From the human T2T-CHM13v2.0 reference genome, Homo sapiens: a stretch of 64,000 nucleotides of DNA. Positions 20,132 through 20,790 of the stretch are shown piece by piece. Within the stretch, counting starts at the first letter, position 1; each line of letters opens with the position of its first letter. The DNA lies in the NCBI RefSeq assembly GCF_009914755.1, contig NC_060936.1; one strand, given 5' to 3'. Position numbers and translations under genes: made by a program. A model generated the notes under the pieces. That model saw nothing but the letters and a program-made list of their open reading frames with translations. It was not told where the DNA came from and did no database searches.

Positions 20132-20226
20132 AAGAAACACCTAGAAGCTATTCTGTTACCAGTTAACTGTATCATCTCATGATGGTTTTCAATCTTGATG
20201 AGCTACATTAAAAAAAACCCGGCTGG

Positions 20227-20478
20227 TCCTTTCAAAAAACCAGCTCCTGGATTCATTAATTTTTTGAAGGATTTTTTGTGCCTCTATTTCCTTCAGTTCT
20301 GCTCTGATTTTAGTTATTTCTTGCCTTCTGCTAGCTTTTGAATGTGTTTGCTCTTGCTTTTCTAGTTCTTTTAATTGTGATGTTAGGGTGTCAATTTTGG
20401 ATCTTTCCTGCTTTCTCTTGTGGGCATTTAGTGCTATAAATTTCCCTCTACACACTGCTATAAAAAAAAAAAAAAAAA
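20227..20478 (+). mobile_element. Retroposed antisense L1 ORF2 fragment (233 bp) with poly(A) tail and 17-bp TSD
   Basis: 229/233 identical to the same-strand segment 56933-57165 of the minus-strand L1. TATAAA at 20435-20440, A17 at 20462-20478, TSD aaaaaaaacccggctgg at 20210-20226 and 20471-20487. Confidence 0.9.
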
Positions 20479-20481
20479 CCC

Positions 20482-20790
20482 GGCTGGGCATGGTGGCTCA
20501 CGCCTGTAATCCCAACACTTTGGGAGGCCAAGGAGGGCGGATCACGAGGTCAGGAGATCGAGACCATCCTGGCTAACACGGTGAAACCCCGTATCTACTA
20601 AAAATACAAAAAATTAGCTGAGTGTGGTGGCGGGCGCCTGTAGTCCCAGCTACTCTGGAGGCTGAGGCAGGAGAATGGCGTGAACCCGGGAGGTGGAGCT
20701 TGCAATGAACCGAGATCAGGCCCCTGCACTTCAGCCTGGGCGACAGAGCGAGACTTAGTCTCAAAAAAAAAAAAAAACAAAAAAAAAAAA
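20482..20790 (+). mobile_element. AluY
   Basis: 'gagatcgagaccatcctggctaacacggtgaaacccc' and 'gagaatggcgtgaacccgggag' diagnostics; A-tail ending in the TSD aaaaaaaacc. Confidence 0.95.

What the first reader, a model, noticed from the sequence alone, without database searches (positions are those of the whole stretch)
20210..20487. Retrocopy of an ANTISENSE L1 ORF2 transcript, polyadenylated at a cryptic TATAAA signal
Seen: 233 bp from the interior of ORF2 (229/233 identical to 56933-57165) carries an A17 tail on the strand antisense to L1. The tail begins ~21 nt after TATAAA (20435-20440), and the unit is bracketed by a perfect 17-bp TSD starting at a TT|AAAA endonuclease site. In the intact L1 the same position is followed by a GT-rich downstream element (57188-57218). 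Normal 5'-truncated L1s keep the sense 3'UTR and poly(A); this insert has neither. Established: L1 carries antisense poly(A) sites that can truncate transcripts reading through it, and L1 proteins mobilise poly(A) RNAs in trans. Inference: this is a fossil of a germline RNA that terminated at an antisense L1 poly(A) site and was retroposed. It may belong to a class of 'antisense-L1 retrocopies' that repeat annotation would label simply as L1 fragments.
Basis: partly seen in the sequence, partly recalled or inferred. Interest (0 to 1): 0.8.

Follow-up and report, generated by a model that had tools for sequence, protein, structure and literature searches.

The report
Inverted L1 fragment with A-tail
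A 233-base piece of an L1 retrotransposon sits backwards next to a poly(A) tail inside a clean target-site duplication; this layout is already described and is most likely a mis-primed L1 insertion, though a copy of an antisense L1 RNA cannot be ruled out.

Summary
A 233-bp antisense L1 ORF2 fragment (20227-20459) is followed by AT and 17 A. It is bounded by a perfect 17-bp duplication at a TT|AAAA site that reaches 6 nt into a downstream Alu.

This architecture is published. Meyer et al. 2010 (PMC2837659) described 39 primate loci with an L1 carrying a 5' poly(T) inside target-site duplications. They weighed the antisense-transcript idea and favoured twin priming with a near-zero sense part.

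- TATAAA starts 25 nt before the tail.
- Only 3.8% of antisense-L1 positions have such a hexamer, and 0.34% have one plus an equally GT-rich downstream element.
- Retrocopies of RNAs ending at the canonical antisense-L1 AATAAA do exist, including one parent-daughter pair.

Against it:
- This site is a singleton among 6,128 copies of its 27-mer.
- The AT is not templated by antisense L1 but matches the 3' end of sense L1 RNA.
- The fragment is near-pristine.
- An antisense RNA would have to pass two stronger signals first.

My odds are twin-priming variant 0.57, antisense-RNA retrocopy 0.30, other 0.13. It is a new member of a known kind and of modest interest.

The parts
20208..20209 (+). TT immediately 5' of the duplication. 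With the A8 that follows it gives the bottom-strand nick site TTTTTTTT/AA, the L1 endonuclease consensus.
   Evidence: sequence read directly
20210..20226 (+). 5' copy of the 17-bp target-site duplication AAAAAAAACCCGGCTGG. It holds the 5' duplication of the older Alu plus the first 6 nt of that Alu.
   Evidence: family D4, 100% identity
20227..20459 (+). 233-bp L1 ORF2 fragment read antisense, about nt 3105 down to 2873 of the local full-length L1.
   Evidence: 229/233 to 56933-57165; best other genomic copies 232/233.
20435..20440 (+). TATAAA, a weak poly(A)-signal variant on the antisense L1 strand. It starts 25 nt before the last L1 base.
20460..20461 (+). AT dinucleotide between the L1 fragment and the A-run. 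Antisense L1 does not template it (that reads TT). It is identical to the last non-A bases of a sense L1 RNA (...AATAAT-A(n)).
   Evidence: 3' end of local L1; 28 of 29 nearest copies continue TTGAATG, 1 CTGAATG; 39 of 40 random copies continue TT.
20462..20470 (+). A9, the part of the A-run that is not target-site duplication (the added tail).
20471..20487 (+). 3' copy of the 17-bp target-site duplication.
   Evidence: family D4
20482..20792 (+). Older Alu whose head was the site of the second-strand cut. Its own duplication, AAAAAAAACC, shows that the same TT|AAAAAAAA nick site was used twice.
   Evidence: family D3. The Alu identity rests on my reading of the sequence, not on a library match.
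53997..60037 (-). Full-length L1 used as the reference for coordinates and for the signal statistics. It is not the source of the fragment.

Best explanation
This is a twin-priming (inversion-deletion) L1 insertion in which the non-inverted part shrank to almost nothing.

Proposed steps:
1. An ordinary sense L1 mRNA was engaged at a TTTTTTTT/AA nick at 20209|20210. This is the same nick site the neighbouring Alu had used earlier.
2. First-strand synthesis from the T-primer copied only the poly(A) tail and at most the last few bases of the 3'UTR (the AT), then stopped.
3. The top strand was cut 17 nt downstream, inside the Alu head.
4. Its 3' end (...GGCTGG) primed on the same RNA about 2.9 kb upstream in ORF2 and copied 233 nt.
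5. Joining of the two cDNAs without homology left an antisense L1 fragment, AT and an A-run between 17-bp duplications.

Shown: the target-primed hallmarks, the inverted orientation, the lack of any longer sense part, and that this architecture is a published class. Inferred: that the template was sense L1 mRNA and not an antisense RNA. The element is an inert intergenic insertion.
For: 1. The architecture matches Meyer et al. 2010 (PMC2837659; I read Results and discussion in full). They report 39 verified primate loci with a truncated L1 carrying a 5' poly(T) inside 7-20-bp duplications, with the canonical endonuclease site on the tail side and L1 parts of 61-2399 bp. They considered an antisense L1 mRNA from a cryptic promoter and judged it possible but inconsistent with their data.

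2. I found the same L1-only architecture at places without any signal. The control window upstream of AATAAA gave 2 of 2 genuine events, L039 and L040. L034 and L056 start exactly in the L1's own tail.

3. The AT is not templated by antisense L1. 28 of 29 nearest copies continue TTGAATG and 1 CTGAATG; 39 of 40 random copies continue TT. It equals the last non-A bases of the local L1's sense 3' end...AATAAT-A(n). It could also be junction filler.

4. The fragment is near-pristine, as expected of RNA from an active element. It differs by 1 base from each of two lineages among its 29 nearest copies, and by 2 bases, over the 206 nt compared, from the (G,T)-type sequence that most sampled copies carry. 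Of 40 random genomic copies holding the site, 0 differ from the fragment by 1 or fewer, 2 by 2 or fewer and 4 by 3 or fewer over those 206 nt; the median is about 10.

5. The site is a singleton. 1 of 1 exact hits and 1 genuine of 3 hits at one mismatch, against 6,128 copies of the 27-mer.

6. An antisense RNA entering a young L1 from its 3' side would meet AATAAA, ATTAAA and another TATAAA before this site. The AATAAA is demonstrably used.
Against: 1. The inverted piece starts about 2.9 kb from the L1 3' end. In Meyer et al., 37 of 39 loci align at or near the 3' end, and the authors say their variants do not adequately explain the 2 exceptions. My four L1-only events start in the tail (3) or 180 nt from it (1).

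2. In 1,703 somatic twin-priming insertions, internal deletions had a median of 14.5 bp, inversion junctions had a median at 5.15 kb, and the lengths of the two cDNAs correlated at R = 0.76 (bioRxiv 10.1101/2024.08.27.596794, passages only). A 2.9-kb internal deletion is therefore atypical.

3. The junction lies 19 nt after the end of a TATAAA. Only 231 of 6,005 antisense-L1 positions (3.8%) have any of 13 signal variants starting 10-30 nt upstream. Only 20 of 5,951 (0.34%) add a downstream GT-rich 20-mer as strong as here. The hexamer list is recalled and the element score is my own crude measure.

4. Microhomology between the primer end and the L1 at the 5' junction is weak: 2 of the last 4 bases, with a terminal G opposite U (read).
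Confidence: 0.57

Rival explanations
1. A Pol II transcript running antisense through a young L1 was cleaved and polyadenylated about 19-21 nt after the cryptic TATAAA in ORF2. L1 proteins then copied it in trans, with 5' truncation to 233 nt, at the TT|AAAA site.
For: - A signal variant lies at an ideal distance, and a strong GT-rich element lies 20-45 nt past the cut in intact copies. Jointly only 0.34% of antisense-L1 positions qualify.
- The class is real at the canonical antisense AATAAA. L035 is 1447/1458 colinear with a parent locus, and homology ends 16 nt after AATAAA, where the copy has poly(A). L033 carries 923 nt of non-L1 sequence inside its duplication and ends 18 nt after AATAAA.
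- Poly(A) sites on the minus strand of L1 ORF2 are reported as diffusely distributed (PMC2553571, passages).
- The far-internal position is no problem for a 5'-truncated retrocopy.
Against: - The site is a singleton despite 6,128 copies of the 27-mer.
- The stronger internal ATTAAA site gave 0 events in its window.
- The AT needs an extra mutation in the tail or template.
- The fragment is near-pristine, whereas random L1 copies with this site mostly are not. The L1 parts of the two proven antisense-signal retrocopies, L033 and L035, are 82% and 95% identical to the local L1.
- The RNA must read past AATAAA, ATTAAA and a first TATAAA.
- A review counts only two cryptic poly(A) sites on the antisense strand (PMC3463474, passage), matching the AATAAA and ATTAAA I found, not this hexamer.
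- No parent can be identified because the insert is L1-only.
Confidence: 0.3
2. Dual priming or another two-template variant. The A-tail was copied from the poly(A) of one RNA (L1, Alu or mRNA) at the bottom-strand nick. The 233 nt were copied from a second, sense L1 RNA primed by the top-strand end, and the two cDNAs were then joined.
For: Meyer et al. propose this and could not tell it from twin priming. It removes the need for a 2.9-kb loop in one RNA. Antisense-oriented partner RNAs in L1 chimeras are likewise attributed to a second priming event (bioRxiv 10.1101/2025.02.02.635956, passages).
Against: Nothing in the sequence distinguishes it from twin priming. It leaves the nearby TATAAA as coincidence, just as twin priming does.
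Confidence: 0.08
3. Not target-primed reverse transcription at all: capture of an L1 fragment during break repair, template switching during replication, or an assembly artefact.
For: None specific. I could not examine orthologues or other human assemblies.
Against: A perfect 17-bp duplication, a consensus TTTT/AA nick site and an A-run exactly at the 3' junction are the three hallmarks of endonuclease-dependent insertion. Only one copy of the junction exists in the assembly.
Confidence: 0.05

Closest known systems
L1 insertions with a 5' poly(T), that is, an inverted poly(A) tail (Meyer, Srikanta, Conlin, Batzer 2010, Mob DNA 1:7, PMC2837659)
   Same: An L1 fragment antisense to an A-tail, nothing else of L1, both inside a 7-20-bp duplication, with the canonical endonuclease site on the tail side and no homology at the internal junction. 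The size (233 bp) is within their 61-2399 bp range.
   Different: The inverted piece comes from mid-ORF2, about 2.9 kb from the 3' end; 37 of their 39 loci align at or near the 3' end. The total A-run is 17 nt (9 outside the duplication), at the low end of their 14-39. No chr12 locus appears in their Table 2 (hg18 coordinates).
Classical twin priming / 5'-inverted L1 (Ostertag and Kazazian 2001; not held, known to me from citations)
   Same: The top-strand 3' end primes internally on L1 RNA and yields an inverted 5' segment within normal duplications.
   Different: There is no recognisable sense segment. The implied internal deletion is about 2.9 kb, against a median of 14.5 bp in 1,120 tumour insertions with an internal deletion.
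Processed retrocopies of RNAs that end at transposon-derived poly(A) sites, such as the canonical antisense-L1 AATAAA (examples L035 and L033 found here; antisense-L1 poly(A) sites in PMC2553571)
   Same: Signal hexamer 10-30 nt before the tail, A-tail, duplication and TT|AAAA site.
   Different: The proven examples carry about 920-1020 nt of non-L1 parent sequence, use AATAAA, and have a tail that abuts templated sequence directly. This locus is L1-only, uses a weak variant, and has an untemplated AT.
Gene-breaking / premature polyadenylation in antisense L1 (Han et al. 2004; Wheelan et al. 2005; neither held, recalled plus the citation)
   Same: The idea that transcripts reading antisense through L1 can be terminated inside it.
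   Different: Those papers concern transcript truncation, not retroposed copies. I could not read them to learn the position of their antisense site. A review gives two antisense sites, which fits AATAAA and ATTAAA and not this TATAAA.

Membership tests
Endonuclease-dependent target-primed L1 insertion | Target-site duplication of about 7-20 bp abutting both ends | tested here: met
   17/17 identical repeat at 20210-26 and 20471-87
Endonuclease-dependent target-primed L1 insertion | Nick site resembling 5'-TTTT/AA on the strand that primes on the tail | tested here: met
   The + strand reads cattAAAAAAAA, so the bottom strand is TTTTTTTT/AA
Endonuclease-dependent target-primed L1 insertion | A-tail at the 3' junction | tested here: met
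   AT then A17, of which 9 A lie outside the duplication
Twin-priming variant with inverted poly(A) tail (Meyer 2010 class) | L1 fragment antisense to the tail, with no recognisable sense L1 part between fragment and tail | tested here: met
   Only AT lies between fragment and A-run. AT is compatible with the last two non-A bases of L1.
Twin-priming variant with inverted poly(A) tail (Meyer 2010 class) | Inverted fragment starts at or near the L1 3' end (37 of 39 published loci) | tested here: not met
   It starts about 2.9 kb from the 3' end, like the 2 published exceptions
Twin-priming variant with inverted poly(A) tail (Meyer 2010 class) | Microhomology between the end of the duplication and L1 at the junction opposite the tail | tested here: inconclusive
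   ...GCTGG against L1 ...GTTGA: 2 of the last 4 match, and the terminal G would face U in the RNA
Retrocopy of an RNA polyadenylated inside antisense L1 | Poly(A) signal hexamer 10-30 nt upstream of the tail | tested here: met
   TATAAA starts 25 nt upstream. The chance rate is 3.8% for 13 variants.
Retrocopy of an RNA polyadenylated inside antisense L1 | GU-rich downstream element in the parent sequence | tested here: met
   A 20-mer of 90% G+T lies within +5..+45 in the intact local L1. Only 3.1% of positions score as high (a crude score of my own).
Retrocopy of an RNA polyadenylated inside antisense L1 | Tail abuts templated sequence | tested here: not met
   An untemplated AT intervenes. 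28 of 29 nearest copies and 39 of 40 random copies read TT there; the 40th is a copy with 24 differences.
Retrocopy of an RNA polyadenylated inside antisense L1 | Identifiable parent locus, or independent copies ending at the same site | tested here: not met
   The insert is L1-only, so no parent is traceable. None of 29 nearest copies has its (A,C) haplotype. No second event at the site.
Retrocopy of an RNA polyadenylated inside antisense L1 | Cleavage at this position seen in RNA 3'-end data | not testable with these tools
   No transcript or 3'-end data are available here

The most novel reading that the evidence does not exclude
The insert is a fossil of an antisense L1 RNA processed at a cryptic TATAAA/GU-rich site in mid-ORF2 and retroposed in trans. 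By my crude score this site is one of the best signal-plus-downstream-element combinations on the antisense strand. With the proven AATAAA cases (L035, L033), it would show that antisense-L1-terminated RNAs form a small, mis-annotated class of retrocopies. It would also suggest that some published poly(T)-L1 exceptions, those far from the 3' end, belong to that class and are not twin priming.
Probability: 0.3. Interest if true: 0.5.

Novelty: new member of a known kind. Interest (0 to 1): 0.3.

Why it matters
By itself this is an inert intergenic insertion with little consequence. Its value is methodological. Inverted L1 fragments with an A-tail can arise in two ways: twin priming on sense L1 RNA, or retroposition of RNAs that end at antisense-L1 poly(A) signals. 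Both routes leave real examples in this genome.

Events that start far from the L1 3' end and end just after a signal, like this one, are where the two routes cannot be told apart from one locus. A genome-wide map of such junctions against antisense signal positions would separate them. It would also show how often antisense-L1 termination happens in the germline.

Tried and rejected
- Recurrence at the site. Exact searches for the L1 end plus A10 gave only this locus. At one mismatch, the two extra hits (L036, L038) are non-L1 sequences with their own AATAAA.
- The local full-length L1 as source. Rejected: it differs at 4 of 233 positions and carries (G,T) where the fragment has (A,C).
- Downstream control window near the canonical AATAAA. 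Of 7 distinct loci, 0 are genuine events: 5 are not L1, 1 is old sense L1 and 1 is an ordinary inverted L1.
- ATTAAA window: 0 hits.
- Position of the published 'major antisense polyadenylation site'. The phrase is in no held paper, and Wheelan 2005 and Ostertag 2001 are not held. I cannot say whether any published antisense site coincides with this one; a review's count of two antisense sites suggests it does not.
- Editing signatures. I looked at whether the fragment's two odd bases (G to A, T to C on the + strand) carry an editing signature. Two changes are too few to use.
- Orthologous empty sites, human polymorphism and RNA 3'-end data could not be examined. Supplements of the papers were not opened.

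Full report
**What is there**

Window 20227-20459 is 233 bp of L1 ORF2 read antisense. It is colinear with 56933-57165 of the full-length minus-strand L1 at about 53997-60037, with 4 mismatches. In that element's coordinates the fragment runs from about nt 3105 down to about nt 2873, some 2.9 kb from the 3' end.

The fragment is followed by AT (20460-61) and an uninterrupted run of 17 A (20462-78). A perfect 17-nt direct repeat, AAAAAAAACCCGGCTGG, lies at 20210-26 and 20471-87. The first copy is preceded by TT, so the bottom strand reads TTTTTTTT/AA.

- Eight of the 17 A belong to the duplication, so the added tail is AT plus A9.
- The last 6 nt of the duplication are the head of the downstream Alu (20482 to about 20792). 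That Alu's own duplication, AAAAAAAACC, shows the same nick site was used twice.

This is an endonuclease-dependent, target-primed insertion that post-dates the Alu.

**Is the architecture new?**

No. Meyer et al. 2010 (PMC2837659; Results and discussion read in full) describe 39 verified primate loci. Each has a truncated L1 with a poly(T) at its 5' end, inside 7-20-bp duplications, with the canonical endonuclease site on the poly(T) side. Read on the other strand, that is this locus.

They explicitly considered a cryptic antisense promoter giving an antisense L1 mRNA. They judged it possible but inconsistent with their data, and concluded for twin priming with an unusually short non-inverted part, or 'dual priming'. 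No chr12 locus is in their table, so this is a further member.

It is an atypical member. 37 of their 39 loci align at or near the L1 3' end, and they say the two exceptions are not adequately explained.

On the antisense strand of the local L1, signal hexamers are rare. There is one AATAAA (54450), one ATTAAA (55241), two TATAAA (55570 and 57141, the latter being this site) and seven other variant hexamers. Only 231 of 6,005 positions (3.8%) have any of 13 variants starting 10-30 nt upstream (the hexamer list is recalled).

In intact copies the cut point is followed, 20-45 nt on, by a 20-mer of 90% G+T. Only 3.1% of positions score as high, and only 20 of 5,951 (0.34%) have both features (a crude score of my own, with the threshold set at the site's own value).

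I also tested whether such retrocopies exist at all. A search for the sequence just after the canonical antisense AATAAA, followed within 10 nt by A10 (one mismatch allowed), gave 3 loci.
- L035 has a perfect 17-bp duplication around a 1.5-kb unit. The unit is 1447/1458 identical, in one block, to a locus on contig 23. Homology ends exactly 16 nt after AATAAA, where the parent continues as antisense L1 and the copy has poly(A).
- L033 has a 12-bp duplication around a unit with 923 nt of non-L1 sequence, followed by the antisense L1 3' end up to 18 nt past AATAAA.

So RNAs terminated at an antisense-L1 signal are retroposed.

**Evidence against it at this locus**

1. The site is a singleton. 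The 27-mer ending at the junction occurs 6,128 times in the genome. An A-run within 10 nt of it occurs only here. With one mismatch allowed there are two more hits, and neither is L1.

2. The stronger internal ATTAAA gave 0 events. The other TATAAA gave one (L056), but that unit begins in the L1's own tail and is L1-only. That is the twin-priming pattern.

3. The same L1-only architecture occurs where no signal exists. A control window upstream of AATAAA gave 2 genuine events, L039 and L040. A downstream control gave 0 genuine events among 7 loci.

4. The AT is not what antisense L1 encodes. 28 of 29 nearest copies continue TTGAATG and 1 CTGAATG. 39 of 40 random copies continue TT. It is what a sense L1 RNA ends with before its tail (...AATAAT-A(n)), or it could be junction filler. 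An antisense-RNA origin needs an extra substitution exactly there.

5. The fragment is near-pristine.
   - Its 29 nearest genomic copies fall into two lineages, (A,T) x19 and (G,C) x10 at positions 20271/20281. The fragment (A,C) is one step from each.
   - I took 40 of the first 45 places listed (5 clustered places skipped). Differences from the fragment over 206 nt range from 2 to 24: 0 copies differ by 1 or fewer, 2 by 2 or fewer, and 4 by 3 or fewer.
   - RNA of an active L1 is expected to be near-consensus; a random antisense L1 in a transcript mostly is not. The L1 parts of the two proven antisense-signal retrocopies, L033 and L035, are 82% and 95% identical to the local L1.

6. An antisense RNA entering a young, intact L1 must pass AATAAA, ATTAAA and the first TATAAA before reaching this site. 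A review counts two cryptic antisense sites (PMC3463474, passage), which fits AATAAA and ATTAAA.

**Evidence against twin priming**

- The internal priming point is far from the 3' end.
- In 1,703 somatic twin-priming insertions, internal deletions were short (median 14.5 bp), junctions clustered near the 3' end (median 5.15 kb), and the two cDNA lengths correlated (bioRxiv 10.1101/2024.08.27.596794, passages).
- Microhomology at the primer junction is weak.

**Weighing**

Both routes are rare, and both leave real examples in this genome. Rough like-for-like estimates from my windows and from Meyer's counts put the expected number of events of each kind at this particular site within the same order of magnitude. 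The untemplated AT and the pristine state then tilt toward an L1 mRNA template.

My odds are:
- twin priming, 0.57;
- a two-RNA variant of it, 0.08;
- the antisense-RNA retrocopy, 0.30;
- anything else, 0.05.

These odds rest on small counts and on recalled parameters. They could shift with the tests listed under next steps.

**Novelty and interest**

This is a new member of a published kind of L1 insertion, in intergenic DNA, with no sign of function. What is mildly interesting is that it lies just where the two routes cannot be told apart, at what my crude score ranks among the best signal contexts on the antisense strand.

I found no paper describing such antisense-L1-terminated retrocopies as a class in the one search aimed at that question. 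That search covers open-access text only, and I opened no supplements.

Noticed in passing
L035 (G000:C4:110523526-110526556), locus 2-1566; parent L099 (G000:C23), locus 1443-2958: A parent-daughter pair. A 1.5-kb retrocopy with a perfect 17-bp duplication is 99.25% identical to an unspliced stretch on contig 23. It ends 16 nt after the canonical antisense-L1 AATAAA. Its first 49 nt are inverted relative to the parent, so it also carries a 5' inversion.
   Followed up: yes
L033 (G000:C3:73151983-73155016), locus 96-1546: A roughly 1.43-kb retrocopy with a 12-bp duplication. Its first 606 nt match at 88% a tandem array with 6.1-kb spacing on contig 17. About 185 nt of that also hit dozens of dispersed short copies. 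The unit ends in the antisense L1 3' end, 18 nt after AATAAA. It looks like a read-through transcript of a tandemly repeated small-RNA gene unit, terminated in an L1.
   Followed up: partly
L056/L057 (G000:C9, about 2.2237-2.2274 Mb, minus strand): 1.6 kb of antisense L1 runs from the element's own T-tail to 20 nt past the other antisense TATAAA, then A20, nested in older L1. It is L1-only and tail-to-tail, which is the published twin-priming variant. No clear duplication was found.
   Followed up: partly
window 20206-20226, 20471-20487 and about 20784-20795: The same TT|AAAAAAAA endonuclease site was used twice: first by the Alu (duplication AAAAAAAACC), then by the L1 fragment. The later 17-bp duplication re-duplicates the Alu's 5' duplication plus 6 nt of the Alu head.
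   Followed up: yes
window 53980-60060, minus strand: A full-length L1 of about 6.04 kb with an intact-looking 5' end (ggggggaggagccaagatgg...), a 3' end ...agtataataataaaaaaaaaa, and a 17-18-bp duplication aaagaaaatgatttccc. I did not check its reading frames.
   Followed up: partly
window 20271 and 20281: The fragment has A and C at these two positions. Its 29 nearest genomic copies are either (A,T) x19 or (G,C) x10, and none has both. Random copies are mostly (G,T), 30 of 40. So the fragment is one step from two minor lineages, or two steps from the common type.
   Followed up: partly
L054 (G000:C23:101113805-101116905), locus about 2021-2560: An ordinary-looking inverted L1. 495 nt of antisense L1 3' end, tail included, are joined directly to sense ORF2 sequence. 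It turned up as a false hit of a control pattern.
   Followed up: no
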